DNA from: a virus
Taxonomy: Duplodnaviria > Heunggongvirae > Uroviricota > Caudoviricetes
IMG/VR virus record: IMGVR_UViG_2703718838_000011
DNA length: 43,299 bases
Direction: 5' to 3' (one strand)
Part shown: positions 17,269-23,932 of the stretch, piece after piece
Layout: every line of letters starts with the position of its first letter
How positions within the stretch are numbered: position 1 is the first letter of the stretch
Position numbers and translations under genes: made by a program
The notes under the pieces: model-generated
The model's input: the letters and a program-made list of their open reading frames with translations, nothing else
The model's database searches: none
What the model was told of the DNA's origin: nothing

Positions 17269-19392
17269 TTATTTCGGCAGGAGTTGCGATATTCGCTTAC
17301 GTTTGACCGGCGCTGGTTCTTCAATAACCGCACCCGGCAGCTCGTAATTGATTTTTTCTTCCTGTCCAACTGGCGCTGGCAGGAACTTATCCGGATCGGC
17401 TTCGAGGTTGGCGGCCCGGACGTTGAGTTTTAACCCCATATGTTTGAGACCGCACAGCGCGGCATAGCTGTAAACGAGGCAGTCAAGCGCTTCGTTAGCT
17501 CGTCCTGGTATTGCTTCCCAGATACTGTACCGCTGCCCGGAAATGACTTTGTAAACCAGTCGCTCCGCCAGCAGCTGATTGAAGTACCCGAGATCGCGAT
17601 CGTCAGGAAAATGCATATAACCCGCAGCGGCGGCGCCAGGTTTGGGTGGCTCAAGATGCAGGCGACCGCGTATCACGTCTTTCGCTGAGTTAACCCCCAG
17701 AATGACAGGGCGGAAACTGGCTTTGCTTTTCGATGATGGTCGTTTGGTCGGCCAGACAGGATTGCGTTTACCTCCCTGTGCAGACTCCCCCTTAATTGCC
17801 CAGACACGACGGCCAAGACGCTCTTTGGCGAATTCGTATACCTTCTGCGTATGGTGGCCACCGGAGTCCATGCACGTTGCCATGATATTCAGGCCGCGCC
17901 CGTCACCACGTCGCCAGATCTGTTTCAGGTATGCATCCAGTCGCTTCCAGGGTTCTTCCGTCTCAAGGTCACCATAAATAACGTCATGCGCGACCGACCA
18001 CGATTCTTCATCTCTCCCCCAGCCGGTGATCGTAATTTCGAAGCGATCGTCCTGGGTATCAACTCCAGCTGTTAACAATGCCACCCCGTCCGGAACGACG
18101 GCCGGAAATATTTCCCGGCGCGCCAGCAGAACATCAACAGGGAGCTGTTTCCCATGATTAGGTCGGTGCGGAAGCCCCATCTGGGTATTCCACCACGCCT
18201 GTTCCTTATCCGGATCGCCCTTCGCATCGATATATTTTTTCGCAATATCCGACGGCTTATCTTTTTGCCAGGGGCTGAAAAGCTTGGATGCCTGGTACCC
18301 CGCGTGGTGGTTATCGACTGCCTCCTTTCCACAGGAGGGGCAGATTGCGCGATAGACCGCATGCCGTTCCGACTCTGACCATTGCCAGACCTTTTCAACG
18401 CTGCCCTCGTCTGCCGCCCGCCAGGCAAGGTCATAATCCATCAGCGGTGAGTGCCGCTCCCCGCAGCACTCAAATGGGCGCGTCTGATGCCATCGAATAG
18501 TGTGCAGAGCTCTGAGGCGCTGTCCTTCGGACCAGCCACTACCACAGCATTCGCAATAGAGCATCGCCGATTTAGTCAGGTGTTTATCTCCCTCTTTCGG
18601 CCACTGAACGTGTTTGAAAAAGTCGGGGAACTGGCGGTGGCCACAGTGCGGGCAAACCACAGATGCCCGGCGCTGATCGGAGTCGGCGTAGCTGTCAGCA
18701 ATGCGGCTCTCATCCTCCACCGTCGGCGAACAGGCGCGTACAGACAGCCAGGTCAGGCCAAATGTCGCTGTACGCTCTTCGGCCAGCGCAATTGGATCGC
18801 CTTCGCGGGTTATCGGGTACTTGTCCACTTCATCCGCCAGCAGGACACGAATCGGACGACGCGCAAGGTTATCAGGGCTACCAGCACCCGCCAGCGCCAG
18901 AAATCCGCCAGTGAATGCCTTGTAAAGAATGGTTTCTTTCGAGCTTTTCTGTTTCGAATCACCGATGATTTTACGCAGTACCGGCGTCACCCTTACCAGC
19001 GGGCTAATACGCTCTTTCGAAAACTGTTCAGCGGCTTCTTCTTTCGGCTGCAGCAGCAGTATCGGACAAGGATCGAGGTGGGCAAAATAGCCAAAAAGGT
19101 TTTCCAGCAGTGCTGTCTTCATCAACTGGGTACAGCACATTACAGTGATGATATGAACCCCGGACTCCGTCGCGGCAAGCATCGGTCCGCGGGCAATTTC
19201 TACCGTCGATGTTTCCCAGTTTCCCGAAGTGCTCCCAGCCTCTTTTGCCAGCTTACGATAGTCATCTGCCCACTGCGGCACACTGATACGCGGCGGGGGT
19301 GTCCAGCCTTTGCGGACGCTTAATTCAAGACGCTCAATCTTCTGCCGGGTTAAACTCTGGCTCTCCGAGGACTGAGATGTGTTTGTGGACAT
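17269..19392 (-). CDS. terminase large subunit (lambda gpA family)
   Basis: 707 aa from ATG 19392 (track start 19398 is TTG); C-terminal NEALDC motif region as in lambda gpA. Confidence 0.9.
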   Translation of the reverse strand: MSTNTSQSSESQSLTRQKIERLELSVRKGWTPPPRISVPQWADDYRKLAKEAGSTSGNWETSTVEIARGPMLAATESGVHIITVMCCTQLMKTALLENLFGYFAHLDPCPILLLQPKEEAAEQFSKERISPLVRVTPVLRKIIGDSKQKSSKETILYKAFTGGFLALAGAGSPDNLARRPIRVLLADEVDKYPITREGDPIALAEERTATFGLTWLSVRACSPTVEDESRIADSYADSDQRRASVVCPHCGHRQFPDFFKHVQWPKEGDKHLTKSAMLYCECCGSGWSEGQRLRALHTIRWHQTRPFECCGERHSPLMDYDLAWRAADEGSVEKVWQWSESERHAVYRAICPSCGKEAVDNHHAGYQASKLFSPWQKDKPSDIAKKYIDAKGDPDKEQAWWNTQMGLPHRPNHGKQLPVDVLLARREIFPAVVPDGVALLTAGVDTQDDRFEITITGWGRDEESWSVAHDVIYGDLETEEPWKRLDAYLKQIWRRGDGRGLNIMATCMDSGGHHTQKVYEFAKERLGRRVWAIKGESAQGGKRNPVWPTKRPSSKSKASFRPVILGVNSAKDVIRGRLHLEPPKPGAAAAGYMHFPDDRDLGYFNQLLAERLVYKVISGQRYSIWEAIPGRANEALDCLVYSYAALCGLKHMGLKLNVRAANLEADPDKFLPAPVGQEEKINYELPGAVIEEPAPVKRKRISQLLPK

Positions 19393-19903
19393 GTTCAATC
19401 AGCACCTCTGTCATCCTGTCCGCCGGTACATCCAGATCAGCAGCCATTAGCGGCGCCACCCTGGACGGCCAGTTAAGCCAGGCATCACGCTGTTGGCGAA
19501 AGGCGTTGAATAAAACCTCCTCGGCTGCTGTCAGCTCAATAAGCTGGCCGCTGTCTTTTTCATACTGCAGCTTTGCCTGCAGGGCCATGTAATTCTCGCG
19601 GATACGTCCCGCTTCCTCTCTCGAAAGATCTGCCCCTTCAGTGAGCATTATCTGGCGGACAGTTTTATTGATTTCATCACCGTCATCATCGTTATCGCTA
19701 ACGACGGGAGTTTTCTTTTTCTTCGCGTTCGAGGCGCGCGGGTCTTTGCCATCGCGGTTTTTCTTCAATGCCGCATCGCTGGCCTCTACGTCAATCAGGT
19801 CTCCGTCCATCACAATGAAGCGCCCGGCTTTAATCCACCGACTAATTGTTTTGCGATCCACACCTGAATGTTGTGCGTACTGACTCTGGTTCATCGTGGT
19901 CAT
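19334..19903 (-). CDS. terminase small subunit (Nu1-like)
   Basis: 189-aa ORF immediately upstream of terminase large subunit and downstream of the cos-like repeat array. Confidence 0.6.
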   Translation of the reverse strand: MTTMNQSQYAQHSGVDRKTISRWIKAGRFIVMDGDLIDVEASDAALKKNRDGKDPRASNAKKKKTPVVSDNDDDGDEINKTVRQIMLTEGADLSREEAGRIRENYMALQAKLQYEKDSGQLIELTAAEEVLFNAFRQQRDAWLNWPSRVAPLMAADLDVPADRMTEVLIEHVHKHISVLGEPEFNPAED

Positions 19904-20051
19904 GGGACATCACCTGGGACATTTTCTGGGGTGGGACATTCGCCTGGGACATTTTTGCCATGTCCCACCAGAATGTCCCACTGGAATAAACTGGAATAGC
20001 CAGAGCTGGCGAGGTGTCCGTAATGATCGCCAGAGGTGGGACATGGGACAC
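19903..20051. repeat. cos-region repeat array: six direct and two inverted copies of TGGGACA(T/C)
   Basis: Direct copies at 19903-19910, 19915-19922, 19932-19939, 19945-19952, 20037-20044, 20044-20051; inverted ATGTCCCA at 19960-19967 and 19973-19980; first copy abuts the Nu1 start codon. Confidence 0.5.
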
Positions 20052-20193
20052 AAATCTGAAAGTTGTAGCTAGGAAAACACCGCGGCGCGCAATGCCCGTA
20101 CCTTACAAAAGTCTCAGGAAGGACCCATTTTTTTATTGGCTTCGACCATTCGCTCCGACTATGATTATTCCTATTCAATACAAGGAGAATGTA

Positions 20194-20697
20194 ATGGGTA
20201 ACAATATAATCAAAATAACTTTCGTAGCCGCAGTGCTGGCATCACCAATTGCTCATGCCCAGTGGGTAACTAATACTGAAGATGACCTTTTCTCTGGTGG
20301 TAAGAAAGCAATGATGCTTGGCGAGGTTTCATCCGACAATGGCGCCATTGTGTTTGACTGCACTAAAGAAAAGCTATCGGCGGCATACGTTGAAATGGAT
20401 AAAAGCACCGAATCACTATCAGAGGTACCAATGGACCTGATAATGAAGGTCGACGGGAATACCGCAGTGAAGCTCGATGCTACCCTTTCAAGACGTAATG
20501 TTCAGAGCCTCCAGATTCAATCGGATGACGCGGACCAACTAAAAACAGTGCTTAAGCAGCTTCAGGGGGCGAAATCCAAAGTGTTAGTTGGTGTGCAAAC
20601 AAAGGATGGCGGAAACCAGCATTCCATGTCAGCCAATGTTTCTGGATCGACAACTGCAGTAAACAGCTTCATAAAAGCTTGCGAAATTAACTTATAA
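20194..20697 (+). CDS. secreted/periplasmic protein of unknown function (moron)
   Basis: ATG 20194 with SD AAGGAG at 20182-20187; N-terminal signal peptide MGNNIIKITFVAAVLASPIAHA; candidate promoter TTGGCT-N18-TATGAT at 20136-20165; opposite strand to flanking phage genes. Confidence 0.55.
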   Translation: MGNNIIKITFVAAVLASPIAHAQWVTNTEDDLFSGGKKAMMLGEVSSDNGAIVFDCTKEKLSAAYVEMDKSTESLSEVPMDLIMKVDGNTAVKLDATLSRRNVQSLQIQSDDADQLKTVLKQLQGAKSKVLVGVQTKDGGNQHSMSANVSGSTTAVNSFIKACEINL

Positions 20698-20707
20698 GTT
20701 ACTGCTT

Positions 20708-21346
20708 TTATTTTGCCGTCCTGATGGCTTCTGCTATCGCCTGATTTAAAGCAGACGGTAGCAGTGCGTTCGCCATGGTACGGGCCCTATCCATATACCC
20801 CAGCACTGGAGTCACAGGTAGCGCATCACCAAACCGGATCAAAAGCTTTGGAGAACGCTGTTTGCGTTTCGGTCTTCGCGTCCCGTTAGCGGAACGTTTG
20901 GCCCGTCGCTTCTTAGCTTTCATCGGCTTCTTACGCTGCCAGACAGCGTTAACGCCATCAACCTCACCTACGAATACATTTTCCTTTGCTTTAAGCTGTG
21001 AGAGCTTATTACGCGGCATGTTGCCGTATTTGTTTAGCTTGACGTTCTTGGGGTTCAATAGCGCTTGGCTATTGAGCTTATGCTCTCCACCTAACTCGAA
21101 TGGTTCCAGATAACCAGCCGCGGTATCGCGGACAAAAACCTTTGCAGTCAGGTTGTTCTTCCTTGCCGCCACCGAACCAACTGATTTAACGGTAAACGGT
21201 GTCGGGCTCTCCAGATGTCGTTCGAACGCTGTTTTCTGTGCCGTTTCTATTTGACGAACAACTTTTGTCATAGCTAGTGCTGTAGCATATGGCACCTGCT
21301 TTTGTACCTTCTTTAATTGCTGAGAAAGGTCTTTGAGTGTTGCCAT
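20708..21346 (-). CDS. hypothetical protein with Lys/Arg-rich segment
   Basis: ATG 21346 with SD GGAG; 212 aa; basic stretch KKPMKAKKRRAKRSANGTRRPKRKQRSPK. Confidence 0.45.
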   Translation of the reverse strand: MATLKDLSQQLKKVQKQVPYATALAMTKVVRQIETAQKTAFERHLESPTPFTVKSVGSVAARKNNLTAKVFVRDTAAGYLEPFELGGEHKLNSQALLNPKNVKLNKYGNMPRNKLSQLKAKENVFVGEVDGVNAVWQRKKPMKAKKRRAKRSANGTRRPKRKQRSPKLLIRFGDALPVTPVLGYMDRARTMANALLPSALNQAIAEAIRTAK

Positions 21347-21367
21347 AAACGCTCCAGTGTACTGACA

Positions 21368-22651: not shown

Positions 22652-23269
22652 TCATACCAGTGCGGCTTTTGCTTTGGCGTAGCGTGCACGACGGTCGTTA
22701 ATGCCGTTCTGTCCACCATTGATGATCTGGGTGATGCGAACCAGATCGCCGGAATAGCTCAGGCATCCGCTGGTGGCGTAGAACCATGCAGCTGAACGTG
22801 CCGCGTTGATATCCTTTTCCAGCAACTCAGGATTACTGACTAAATCCAGTTTTAATCCCGTTCCGCAGCGGCGGTAATTATCAAGACCGGTAATCTGAAT
22901 CAGCCCACGGCCACGATATTTCCACCCATCGCCTGATGCTTTGTTACCGAGGCGATTGCTGTACACCAGATTTGCAATGGCTGGCTGATTGGCTACGTGC
23001 CCTTTTTCTTTGTCACGCCCAAGCATATATGCCTGATAGTTCGTAATGCGGCGTCCAAATGTGGTCAGCAGAGCGGCTGGGGTGTAGTTGAAGCTCTCCA
23101 CCAGCGCAGAGAATCCCGCTGATTCATGTCCTGACTGAGCAATAAACATTGCCTGGTCTTCAGGCTTAACAATGCCGAACTCTTTCATTGCCGCGTCAAT
23201 GTGCGGAAACCAGCGCGTAGCTAACCCGGCGCTTACACCAGCCGCCTGTTGAAATTGTGATTGGTTCAT
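22652..23269 (-). CDS. endolysin, glycoside hydrolase family 19 (chitinase-like lysozyme)
   Basis: 205-aa ORF downstream of holin genes; GH19-type sequence features. Confidence 0.8.
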   Translation of the reverse strand: MNQSQFQQAAGVSAGLATRWFPHIDAAMKEFGIVKPEDQAMFIAQSGHESAGFSALVESFNYTPAALLTTFGRRITNYQAYMLGRDKEKGHVANQPAIANLVYSNRLGNKASGDGWKYRGRGLIQITGLDNYRRCGTGLKLDLVSNPELLEKDINAARSAAWFYATSGCLSYSGDLVRITQIINGGQNGINDRRARYAKAKAALV

Positions 23270-23550
23270 TAATGCCTCAGCGTATCAACGAGACGCGCCA
23301 CATTCCCACGAGCCCATAACACGGCAGCGCAAATAAGAAGGTTTACGATGACCACCATCCAGTGTGACTCCTGGTAGAGGCCGAACAGATATCGGAATGG
23401 AACGCTGGCATAAACCAGCACAACGAAGTACGCCAGCAATGATATAGCGGGGCGATGTCTTGCCCCTTCACGCTGGTAGAACATCAGGACAAGGACGATG
23501 ACCGCACAAATACCTGCATTCACCATCGCTGACGGATCACTTGTTACCAT
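23269..23550 (-). CDS. holin-like membrane protein (second holin/antiholin candidate)
   Basis: ATG 23550 with SD GGAGG; 93 aa with about three hydrophobic helices. Confidence 0.5.
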   Translation of the reverse strand: MVTSDPSAMVNAGICAVIVLVLMFYQREGARHRPAISLLAYFVVLVYASVPFRYLFGLYQESHWMVVIVNLLICAAVLWARGNVARLVDTLRH

Positions 23551-23932
23551 TGCTGGCCCCTCCTCCACGGAATCGCGAAAGAATACTGAACAGGCTTCCC
23601 AAATCCTGACTGTTGAAAAATGTGAGCACTTTGATTGTCATCGCCGCCACTACAACAGCACCAAGTGCGTCTAATGGTCTGTCACTATACCCGGTAGCCT
23701 GTGACAGCTTTGAACCCACCAGTCCAGCGGCAAGAACGCCAACAATGAATGACGTCATGAAGTAAGCAATCAATCGTACTCGTGTGATATTTGCCGCTGT
23801 CGCTACATAAAATACTGCACCAGCGAATGCGCCAAATACCACGCCATAATCAATACCGGTTGCAAGACCAAATACGCTGGCTCCCATCAGGCCACCAGCC
23901 GCGACCGTAGTGCCAGAAACAGGATCGGACAT
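23537..23932 (-). CDS. holin
   Basis: 131 aa, several TM helices, first gene of lysis cassette, SD GAGGGGG. Confidence 0.6.
   Translation of the reverse strand: MSDPVSGTTVAAGGLMGASVFGLATGIDYGVVFGAFAGAVFYVATAANITRVRLIAYFMTSFIVGVLAAGLVGSKLSQATGYSDRPLDALGAVVVAAMTIKVLTFFNSQDLGSLFSILSRFRGGGASNGNK

What the first reader, a model, noticed from the sequence alone, without database searches (positions are those of the whole stretch)
20136..20697. Plus-strand secreted-protein moron beside cos
A 167-aa protein with a signal peptide, strong RBS and candidate promoter is encoded on the strand opposite to all flanking structural and lysis genes, in the position where lambda carries bor and lom. It is likely a lysogen-expressed periplasmic or surface factor.
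Basis: partly seen in the sequence, partly recalled or inferred. Interest (0 to 1): 0.45.

Follow-up and report, generated by a model that had tools for sequence, protein, structure and literature searches.

The report
Secreted-protein moron beside phage cos
A roughly 580-base accessory cassette at the very end of an E. coli prophage genome encodes a small exported protein of an uncharacterised family that temperate phages repeatedly carry as optional cargo; it is a real and tidy example of a known kind of element, and its function is still unknown.

Summary
Window 20194-20697 (+) encodes a 167-aa protein with an AAGGAG ribosome-binding site and a cleavable signal peptide. It lies antisense to every neighbouring gene of an E. 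coli prophage with a lambda-like head and a Mu-like tail.

I mapped cos by comparison with lambda: cosQ at 20120-20126 and the cohesive end at 20085-20096. The gene therefore starts about 100 nt from the virion DNA end.

It is a moron in the strict sense. Fourteen E. coli genomes carry the same terminase and cos but run from cosQ straight into the stop codon of the next late gene, so about 580 bp (20128-20707) are simply missing. The -10, -35 and ribosome-binding site are conserved across diverged alleles, and the gene is under purifying selection.

Homologues occupy other accessory slots:
- after mom in Mu-like prophages;
- beside tape-measure genes;
- next to cI, near HicAB or restriction-modification cargo;
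- a few plain chromosomal sites.

The mature protein is soluble and periplasmic, with an invariant cysteine pair. Its fold weakly resembles IalB, and it matches no Pfam, NCBIfam or PADLOC family.

Function and lysogen expression are untested. My best guess is an envelope-acting accessory protein, perhaps for superinfection exclusion. The comparison with bor is apt; the one with lom is not.

The parts
20128..20707 (+). The moron cassette as a whole (promoter, ribosome-binding site, ORF and 10 nt of 3' spacer). It is the segment missing from otherwise near-identical prophages.
   Evidence: Identity of 99.7-99.8% with 12 E. coli genomes stops at window 20127. In L086 cosQ is followed after 14 nt by the stop codon of the p212 homologue. 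The uninterrupted empty junction is found in 14 genomes, while in carriers the match breaks exactly at the junction.
20194..20697 (+). Coding sequence of the 167-aa exported protein (phrog_19473; WP_001472855.1)
   Evidence: Purifying selection. AlphaFold2 model with pLDDT 86 and pTM 0.79.
20194..20259 (+). Signal peptide (22 codons) with predicted signal peptidase I cleavage AHA|QW
   Evidence: Rule-based statistics over 105 family members. Residues 1-20 have pLDDT below 50. The invariant Trp24 lies two residues after the predicted cleavage site.
20182..20187 (+). Shine-Dalgarno sequence AAGGAG, 6 nt before the ATG
   Evidence: Sequence. CAAGGrG is invariant in the alignment of 12 loci.
20136..20165 (+). 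Sigma-70-type promoter candidate: -35 TTGGCT, 18-nt spacer, -10 TATGAT
   Evidence: Scan. The key -10 and -35 positions are invariant while the spacer and flanks vary.
20120..20126 (-). cosQ (GGGTCCT on the - strand), only 10 nt from the -35 hexamer
   Evidence: Same heptamer and same 23-nt distance to the cut site as in lambda. Invariant block.
20085..20096 (-). Predicted 12-nt cohesive end within cosN (GGCATTGCGCGC on the - strand). The cut is predicted between 20097 and 20096, by analogy with lambda.
   Evidence: Window '...tacg|GGCATTGCGCGC|cgcggtgttttcc' against lambda '...tacg|GGGCGGCGACCT|cgcgggttttcgc'. Invariant block. The cut itself is inferred, not shown.
19905..20050 (.). cosB-like array of ATGTCCCA / TGGGACAT repeats between cosN and the terS start. 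This is context, not part of the cassette.
   Evidence: Read directly from the sequence.
19334..19903 (-). Terminase small subunit gene (flank)
   Evidence: phrog_57, E 1.1e-36.
20708..21346 (-). 212-aa late gene (phrog_1924, 'minor tail protein'), convergent with the ORF, with stop codons 10 nt apart (flank)
   Evidence: Its homologue directly abuts cosQ where the cassette is absent.

Best explanation
Window 20128-20707 is a moron, an optional self-contained transcription unit. It was inserted between cosQ and the stop codon of the last late gene upstream of cos, in a temperate E. coli phage with a lambda-like head and a Mu-like contractile tail.

**Shown**
- The cassette is present or absent at a precise site.
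- The promoter hexamers and ribosome-binding site are conserved.
- The gene is under purifying selection.
- The encoded preprotein has a classical signal peptidase I signal peptide.
- The mature protein is 145 aa, acidic and has no membrane anchor.
- One cysteine pair is invariant across the whole family.
- A confident beta-rich model is closest to the periplasmic protein IalB.

**Inferred**
- Host sigma-70 RNA polymerase transcribes the gene from its own promoter, away from cos and antisense to the late operon. It would therefore be made in the repressed prophage, and also early after infection, and then be damped by Q-antiterminated late transcription running the other way.
- The protein is exported by Sec, oxidised to a disulfide in the periplasm, and acts there as a soluble binding protein.

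**Favoured role**
I favour protection of the lysogen at the envelope, namely superinfection exclusion at the periplasmic stage of DNA entry (about 0.3). The reasons are that the family repeatedly sits in slots where exclusion or defence cargo is found (beside tape-measure genes, and next to cI with HicAB or restriction-modification genes) and that it evolves faster than its flanks.

I hold the moron and periplasmic-protein parts at about 0.85-0.9, and the specific role much lower.
For: **Presence/absence**
- Twelve E. coli genomes are 99.7-99.8% identical up to window 20127 and no further.
- L086 and E. coli HS go from cosQ straight to the p212 homologue.
- The empty junction is intact in 14 genomes and broken exactly at the junction in carriers.
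- In a second, unrelated backbone (HNH and HK97-type terminase) only 2 of 73 related loci carry the gene. A non-carrier has other cargo in the slot.

**Autonomy**
- The promoter hexamers and ribosome-binding site are invariant among alleles that are 60-100% identical.
- By my own reading of the upstream sequences, homologues in other contexts have promoter-like sites of their own. The scans of three such loci did not report one immediately upstream of the gene.
- GC content is 44.6%, against 52-55% for the adjacent terminase genes.

**A real gene**
- pN is far below pS in all pairs. An allele swap is visible in L048, where terL has dS 0.15 but the ORF has pS 0.78.

**Export**
- Signal-peptide statistics.
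- Invariant W24, C56 and C163 in 105 sequences, with one Cys pair per repeat in multi-copy relatives.

**Fold**

**Cargo-slot pattern**
- After mom at the right end of Mu-like prophages, with different chromosomal flanks.
- Between tape measure and DNA-circularization genes.
- Upstream of the tape-measure gene, next to a Fic/DOC gene. This is the slot type of the HK97 gp15 exclusion moron (PMC3594210).
- A 43%-identical paralogue in at least 1000 E. coli contigs, just downstream of cI beside HicAB or Eco57I/BsuBI genes.
Against: - No transcript or protein data exist. The promoter match alone is not above chance.
- No intrinsic terminator follows the gene; the convergent stop codon is 10 nt away. 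One classical moron feature is therefore missing.
- No similarity to any known exclusion or defence protein was found: PADLOC none, Pfam and NCBIfam none.
- The IalB resemblance is modest. Foldseek against the PDB found nothing significant. No profile-to-sequence link was found. IalB's own molecular function is unknown.
- Some family members lie in ordinary chromosomal contexts: between recA and alaS, and in Leminorella, Ewingella and Amorphus. The fold therefore has a cellular role that need not concern phages.
- In the tape-measure slots the gene is co-oriented with the tail operon and only 33-35 nt behind the tape-measure gene. That would also fit late lytic expression.
Confidence: 0.6

Rival explanations
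1. It is a lysogenic-conversion fitness or virulence factor for the host rather than an anti-phage function. The periplasmic protein would modify envelope properties such as serum or stress resistance, adhesion or invasion, in the manner claimed for Bor or IalB.
For: - It occupies the same genomic position and orientation as lambda bor.
- Its best structural neighbour is IalB, which is linked to erythrocyte invasion in Bartonella.
- An IalB-domain protein, RgsG, is a periplasmic growth-pole factor in Sinorhizobium.
- Family members sit in plain chromosomal contexts, which suggests a cellular envelope role.
- Carriers come from human, animal and environmental isolates.
Against: - It is not a lipoprotein and is not homologous to Bor, Lom or Ail.
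- Its neighbours in other phages are defence or toxin cargo and tape-measure genes, not virulence genes.
- No enrichment in pathogens is evident from the strain list.
Confidence: 0.2
2. It is an orphan periplasmic immunity or inhibitor protein. It would neutralise an incoming periplasm-acting toxin or enzyme, such as a type VI peptidoglycan-targeting effector, a colicin- or pesticin-like muramidase, or a phage tail lysozyme, as Tsi/Tai proteins, Ivy/PliC or T4 Spackle do.
For: - The protein is small, acidic, soluble and disulfide-bonded in the periplasm.
- It is sporadic and horizontally mobile.
- It diverges faster than its flanks, with dN about 0.3 against 0.05 for terL.
- Some relatives have tandem multi-copy forms.
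- That immunity and inhibitor proteins of this sort are typically small periplasmic proteins is from my own knowledge.
Against: - No cognate effector gene was seen nearby in any context.
Confidence: 0.1
3. It serves the lytic cycle of the phage. The periplasmic protein would be made during infection to tune lysis, or to stop progeny adsorbing or injecting into lysing cells, and would not be a prophage-expressed function.
For: - In four phages the homologue lies inside the tail operon, co-oriented. In two of them it is 33-35 nt after the tape-measure gene, where late transcription would include it.
- In the window it lies next to the lysis cassette.
Against: - In the window, and in the majority of phage loci, it is antisense to the late operon. 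Late transcription would oppose it.
- It is dispensable, since near-identical prophages lack it.
- The paralogue beside cI is in the immunity region.
Confidence: 0.08
4. It is a virion or assembly component, or a chance ORF.
For: Its neighbour belongs to phrog_1924, which is labelled 'minor tail protein', and some homologues sit among tail genes.
Against: - A Sec signal peptide and a periplasmic disulfide pair do not fit cytoplasmic virion assembly.
- No structural family or fold was hit.
- Near-identical prophages lack it at this site, so it is not part of the conserved gene set.
- Strong purifying selection and 269 related clusters exclude a chance ORF.
Confidence: 0.02

Closest known systems
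Lambda bor (Bor/Iss lipoprotein moron)
   Same: An accessory gene in the Rz-to-cos interval, on the strand opposite to the late operon, encoding an exported envelope protein. Bor is cited as a prophage-encoded gene that increases serum resistance (PMC3594210).
   Different: - Bor is an outer-membrane lipoprotein. This protein has no lipobox and no sequence relationship to Bor.
- bor lies 32 nt after Rz and 1.75 kb from cos. This gene starts about 100 nt from the predicted cos cut, directly against cosQ.
HK97 gp15 moron (superinfection exclusion)
   Same: It is the prototype moron: optional, expressed from the prophage, and protective against DNA injection. It lies between the tail assembly chaperone and tape-measure genes (PMC3594210). 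Homologues of the present gene occupy that same slot or the slot just after the tape-measure gene.
   Different: No sequence similarity was found. From my own knowledge gp15 is a membrane protein, whereas this one is predicted to be soluble and periplasmic. An exclusion function has not been shown here.
IalB (invasion-associated locus B, PF06776; PDB 3dtd)
   Different: - Only 13% identity.
- None of 105 family members listed an IalB match even at E 0.1.
- There is no profile-to-sequence match to 3dtd, and Foldseek did not find it.
- IalB's molecular function is itself unknown.
Periplasmic exclusion proteins P1 Sim and T4 Spackle (recalled from my own knowledge)
   Same: Phage-encoded proteins that bear a signal peptide and act in the periplasm to block a superinfecting phage after adsorption. 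This is the mode of action proposed here.
   Different: No sequence or fold relationship was detected. The resemblance is functional conjecture only.

Membership tests
Moron (Juhala/Hendrix sense; PMC3594210) | Extra DNA that is present in some phage genomes and absent from otherwise closely related ones at the same site | tested here: met
   Flanks 99.7-99.8% identical stop at window 20127. The empty junction is intact in 14 E. coli genomes and broken at that point in carriers. Only 2 of 73 loci of a second backbone carry the gene.
Moron (Juhala/Hendrix sense; PMC3594210) | Own promoter | tested here: met
   TTGGCT-18-TATGAT, with the critical positions invariant across 12 diverged loci. This is sequence-level evidence only; promoter activity was not measured.
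Moron (Juhala/Hendrix sense; PMC3594210) | Own terminator | tested here: not met
   No terminator-like site in 19850-20850. The convergent stop codon is 10 nt away.
Moron (Juhala/Hendrix sense; PMC3594210) | Base composition different from the surrounding genes | tested here: inconclusive
   GC 44.6% against 50.9% for the window and 52-55% for the terminase genes, but only the 12.7th percentile of 504-nt windows.
Moron (Juhala/Hendrix sense; PMC3594210) | Expressed from the repressed prophage | not testable with these tools
   Needs a lysogen transcriptome or a reporter fusion.
Bor/Iss lipoprotein family | Lipobox with Cys at +1, and sequence homology to lambda Bor | tested here: not met
   The +1 residue is never Cys in 105 members. 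No Pfam hit.
Ail/Lom outer-membrane protein family | Sequence homology to the Ail/Lom outer-membrane protein family | tested here: not met
IalB (PF06776) | Match to the family profile at the gathering threshold | tested here: not met
   No IalB match for any of 105 members even at E 0.1. One other relative scores 18.7 bits against a cut-off of 22.1.
IalB (PF06776) | Same three-dimensional fold as 3dtd | tested here: inconclusive
Known anti-phage defence or exclusion proteins (PADLOC, PHROG annotations) | Profile match to a described defence or exclusion family | tested here: not met
   PADLOC gave only a spurious hit at E 0.007. phrog_19473 is labelled 'unknown function'.
Sec/signal peptidase I-exported soluble periplasmic protein | Positive n-region, hydrophobic core, A-x-A cleavage motif and no further membrane segment | tested here: met
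   One search gives the family-wide statistics. The maximum 19-residue hydropathy of the mature part is 0.65. SignalP itself was not run.

The most novel reading that the evidence does not exclude
The family (phrog_19473 and its roughly 270 cluster representatives) would be a previously unrecognised class of soluble periplasmic superinfection-exclusion proteins. Temperate phages with contractile, Mu-type tails would plant it in several accessory slots, often next to the tape-measure gene whose product crosses the periplasm.

The cassette could also move between unrelated phages as the physical right end of a cos-cut virion DNA. In phages with an HK97-type terminase, only the carriers of the gene also carry the lambda-like cosQ-cosN element, and homology stops at the 12-nt cohesive end.
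Probability: 0.25. Interest if true: 0.6.

Novelty: new member of a known kind. Interest (0 to 1): 0.4.

Why it matters
Morons are how temperate phages pay their hosts, and most of their products have no known function.

This one is unusually easy to study:
- Its boundaries are exact.
- Natural isogenic prophages with and without it exist.
- Its product is small and soluble, and its predicted structure is confident.

The family is also widespread. It occupies at least five distinct accessory slots, it has a paralogue beside cI in at least 1000 E. coli contigs, and it appears in no curated family database.

If it proves to be an exclusion or envelope-protection factor, it would annotate hundreds of hypothetical proteins in enterobacterial prophages. 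It would also give the IalB-like fold its first hint of a function. If it does nothing measurable, it remains an ordinary hypothetical cargo gene.

Tried and rejected
**Searches that found nothing useful**
- INPHARED phage records, by DNA and by tblastn: no match.
- Pfam on the protein, on 10 longer relatives and on 105 members: nothing consistent.
- NCBIfam and PADLOC: nothing.
- PDB sequence searches with two profiles and one distant member: only noise.
- Foldseek against the PDB: no significant hit. The top TEAD, MD-1 and GM2-activator rows have TM-scores of about 0.25.
- BFVD viral structures: only uncharacterised proteins of T4-like phages, with TM about 0.5. The KP15 paper says nothing about them.
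- The AlphaFold database library was not available.
- Rfam on the region: nothing.
- The word-indexed profile search added almost no distant members.
- The diverse alignment was too loose for a genome scan.

**Ideas tested and dropped**
- I asked whether the 205-aa gene upstream in L011 is a homologue of the window's 212-aa neighbour, which would have made a conserved gene pair. It is not.
- I asked whether the window's 169-aa ORF in the slot between the tape-measure and DNA-circularization genes is a second copy. It is an IS200-type transposase.
- I looked for operators shared between the cro-cI region and the region downstream of the cI-adjacent paralogue, to place that paralogue strictly in a rex-like slot. 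The result was inconclusive.
- I first thought the conserved block upstream of the gene might be a regulatory element of the cassette. Comparison with lambda showed it to be cosQ and cosN.

Full report
**1. What is at the coordinates**

The window is a prophage. Around the finding, every gene is on the minus strand:
- terminase large subunit, 17269-19398;
- terminase small subunit, 19334-19903;
- a 212-aa late gene, 20708-21346 (phrog_1924);
- spanins, endolysin (22652-23269) and holin (23269-23568).

The head genes are lambda-like (gpW, portal, S49 protease, decoration protein, capsid E). The tail is Mu-like and contractile.

On the plus strand an ORF runs from the ATG at 20194 to the TAA at 20697 and encodes 167 aa. 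AAGGAG lies at 20182-20187, 6 nt upstream of the ATG. RefSeq calls the same protein WP_001472855.1, 'hypothetical protein'.

**2. Where cos is**

I compared the minus strand of 19880-20200 with the two ends of lambda and found the same geometry:

| | sequence around the cut |
|---|---|
| lambda | GGGTCCT, 23 nt, ...tacg\|GGGCGGCGACCT\|cgcgggttttcgc |
| window | GGGTCCT, 23 nt, ...tacg\|GGCATTGCGCGC\|cgcggtgttttcc |

This gives the following map:
- cosQ is at 20120-20126.
- By analogy, the 12-nt cohesive end is at 20085-20096.
- The many ATGTCCCA / TGGGACAT repeats at 19905-20050 are the cosB-like array in front of terS.

The gene therefore begins about 100 nt from the predicted cut, and its -35 hexamer is 10 nt from cosQ. 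It is the terminal gene of the right end of the virion chromosome. It reads inward, convergent with the late operon, and its stop codon is 10 nt from that of the 212-aa gene. The cut site itself is inferred, not demonstrated.

**3. It is a gene**

- The protein matches phrog_19473 ('unknown function') over its whole length, with E 1.6e-99.
- It has 33 homologue clusters in Enterobacterales at 46-99% identity.
- An exhaustive profile search finds 269 representative clusters, mostly of about 165 aa. A few proteins contain two or three tandem copies.
- Nei-Gojobori comparisons give pN far below pS for every pair.
- Identical or 99%-identical copies occur in E. coli, Enterobacter, Kluyvera and Citrobacter. 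That fits recent spread by a phage.

**4. It is a moron in the strict sense**

In complete E. coli genomes, a 2.5-kb query across the region matches fully in 22 genomes. In 12 others it is 99.7-99.8% identical only up to window 20127, one base past cosQ.

In one of these genomes (AREA_C483, locus L086), cosQ is followed after 14 nt by the stop codon of the homologue of the 212-aa gene (79% identity). Nothing lies in between. E. coli HS is similar.

I then used that empty junction as a query. It is uninterrupted in 14 genomes, and in the carriers the match breaks exactly at the junction. The cassette is therefore about 580 bp, at 20128-20707.

An alignment of the upstream region from 12 loci whose proteins are 60-100% identical shows:
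- invariant cosN and cosQ blocks;
- an invariant T, A, T and final T of the -10;
- an invariant T..GC of the -35;
- an invariant CAAGGrG ribosome-binding site;
- variable sequence between these elements.

This comparative footprint supports a promoter that a single-sequence scan could not (1 hit against 1.4 expected by chance).

GC content is 44.6%, against 52-55% for the adjacent terminase genes. That is a modest deviation, at the 12.7th percentile.

No intrinsic terminator follows the gene. I infer that its transcript runs antisense into the late gene, and that Q-modified late transcription must cross it in the opposite sense to reach the terminase genes. Lambda bor sits in the same antisense position between Rz and cos.

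Alleles are exchanged independently of the flanks. In L048, terL has dS 0.15, while the gene's synonymous sites are saturated (pS 0.78). Its dN is about 0.3 where terL has 0.05 and the 212-aa gene has 0.14-0.17.

**5. The same gene is cargo in many other slots**

I classified the fetched loci with my own ORF and BLAST script and with precomputed Pfam neighbours.

| Class | Context | Strand relative to neighbours |
|---|---|---|
| A | terL, terS, cos, [gene], 212-aa gene, lysis cassette. This is the majority of the phage loci, including Salmonella. | antisense |
| B | Phages with HNH endonuclease, Terminase_4 small subunit, HK97-type large terminase and portal. The gene lies between the lysis cassette and HNH. 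Only 2 of 73 related loci carry it; a non-carrier (L094) has other small cargo genes there. | antisense |
| C | Last gene after com and mom at the right end of Mu-like transposable prophages. Chromosomal flanks differ in five genomes, and this 63%-identical protein is seen on 131 contigs. | same |
| D | Between the tape-measure and DNA-circularization genes of Mu-type tail modules in four phages, 33-35 nt after the tape-measure gene in two. In Morganella it carries an added C-terminal domain. | same |
| E | Just upstream of the tape-measure gene, once beside a Fic/DOC gene and once beside another secreted protein. This is the slot type of the HK97 gp15 moron (PMC3594210). | same |
| F | A 43%-identical, 183-aa paralogue seen on at least 1000 E. 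coli contigs. It lies downstream of cI, next to HicAB or an Eco57I/BsuBI restriction-modification pair, and before antA-kilR-gam-recT. | same as cI |
| G | Ordinary chromosomal sites: between recA and alaS in one genome, and in Leminorella, Ewingella, Serratia and the alphaproteobacterium Amorphus. | not applicable |

The family is thus a cellular periplasmic domain that temperate phages have repeatedly taken up as optional cargo. Every phage context whose tail genes I could see has a contractile tail. The tail of the class F prophage was not seen.

**6. The protein**

The N-terminus is MGNNIIKITFVAAVLASPIAHA|QW. I aligned 105 diverse members and assumed cleavage two residues before the invariant Trp. 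On that assumption:
- Ala is at -1 in 88 members, and a small residue is at -3 in 89;
- the median signal-peptide length is 21 aa;
- the n-region is positive in 92%;
- Cys is never at +1, so the protein is not a lipoprotein.

The mature protein is 145 aa, 15.5 kDa, with pI 4.95 and no hydrophobic segment.

W24, C56 and C163 are invariant, and D31, F33, N102 and G133 are nearly so. Multi-copy relatives have one Cys pair per repeat. An intramolecular disulfide formed in the periplasm is the natural reading, but it is inferred.

AlphaFold2 with the family alignment gives pLDDT 86 and pTM 0.79, with nine strands and two helices; only the signal peptide is disordered.

Foldseek finds nothing significant in the PDB. 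In BFVD it finds only uncharacterised proteins of T4-like phages.

One distant relative gives a sub-threshold Pfam IalB hit (E 0.002). None of the 105 members matches any Pfam family consistently. NCBIfam and PADLOC are blank.

IalB-domain proteins are periplasmic or inner-membrane envelope proteins whose molecular function is unknown.

**7. How it most likely works**

- **Shown:** a precisely bounded optional cassette; conserved promoter and ribosome-binding-site signals; a conserved, selected gene; a signal peptidase I-type signal peptide; a confident beta-rich model.
- **Inferred:** transcription by host RNA polymerase from the prophage, antisense to the silent late operon; Sec export; disulfide formation; action as a soluble periplasmic binding protein.
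- **Favoured role (about 0.3):** superinfection exclusion at the periplasmic stage of DNA entry. The grounds are the company the gene keeps (tape-measure genes, the gp15-type slot, and the cI-adjacent slot with toxin-antitoxin and restriction-modification cargo) and its faster divergence than the flanks.

The rivals are:
- a Bor- or IalB-like host fitness or virulence factor (about 0.2);
- an orphan immunity or inhibitor protein against periplasm-acting toxins or lysozymes (about 0.1);
- a lytic-cycle periplasmic function, suggested by its co-orientation inside tail operons (about 0.08);
- a virion component or a chance ORF (about 0.02, and contradicted by the evidence here).

Nothing I could compute discriminates firmly among the first three.

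**8. Comparison with what is known, and verdict**

In position and orientation the gene is the counterpart of lambda bor, but it is unrelated to Bor and is not a lipoprotein. It meets the defining moron criteria of presence/absence and own promoter. It does not meet the own-terminator criterion, and the composition criterion is only weakly met. It is not a member of Pfam IalB by sequence, and the fold resemblance is moderate.

I rate it a new member of a known kind: a well-delimited moron carrying an uncharacterised periplasmic protein family. Interest is moderate (0.4). The element type is ordinary. What is worth following up is the family's breadth, its recurrence in accessory and defence slots, and the availability of natural prophages with and without it.

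Noticed in passing
window 5604-6921 (ORF 5708-6217, - strand): An IS200/IS605-type transposase gene lies in a 1.3-kb insertion between the DNA-circularization and tape-measure genes, and is absent from the otherwise 97-99% identical prophage L001. The same slot holds homologues of the studied gene in four other phages (L011, L068, L079, L090).
   Followed up: partly
L053-L057, L069, L092, L093 compared with window 20084-20135: Phages with an unrelated packaging module (HNH, Terminase_4, HK97-type TerL and portal) carry the lambda-like cosQ, 23-nt spacer and cosN element only when they carry the gene. Homology to the window's phage type stops at the 12-nt cohesive end, give or take 1 nt. It looks as if the cassette was captured as the physical right end of a cos-cut virion DNA. 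Whether that cos copy functions there is unknown.
   Followed up: partly
window 19905-20135: The cos region has lambda-like geometry: cosQ GGGTCCT, the same 23-nt spacing, a conserved flank CGCGGtGTTTTC, a different 12-nt end (GGCATTGCGCGC), and a dense array of ATGTCCCA/TGGGACAT repeats as a presumed cosB.
   Followed up: yes
window 20708-21346 (- strand); breakpoint at 21347: A 212-aa gene with a very basic stretch (phrog_1924 'minor tail protein', no Pfam hit) sits alone between the lysis genes and cos, away from the other structural genes. Similarity to related prophages (L001, L013) ends exactly at its start codon, so it travels with the packaging and head module rather than the lysis module.
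   Followed up: partly
L081-L085, gene at 8001-8552: A 183-aa paralogue (43% identical), found on at least 1000 E. coli contigs, lies between the cI repressor gene (with either HicAB or an Eco57I/BsuBI restriction-modification pair) and antA-kilR-gam-recT in lambdoid prophages. A strong promoter-like site (TTGACA-18-TATATT) follows it at 8575-8604.
   Followed up: partly
L071 5441-5923 and L015 2080-3222: Fic/DOC-family genes adjoin homologues of the gene in two unrelated contexts: a phage tail-operon cargo island and a Serratia chromosomal site. This may be coincidence.
   Followed up: no
L077 8001-8516: A distant family member (28% identical, with a signal peptide) occupies the interval between recA and alaS in one genome. 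From my own knowledge, many Gammaproteobacteria have recX there.
   Followed up: no
L094 1829-2740: In a phage of the HK97-type backbone that lacks the gene, the same slot between the lysis cassette and HNH holds a 151-aa gene and a 94-aa gene. The latter has its own TTGACA/TATAAT promoter and a hairpin-plus-T-run terminator. The slot is therefore a general cargo hot spot.
   Followed up: no
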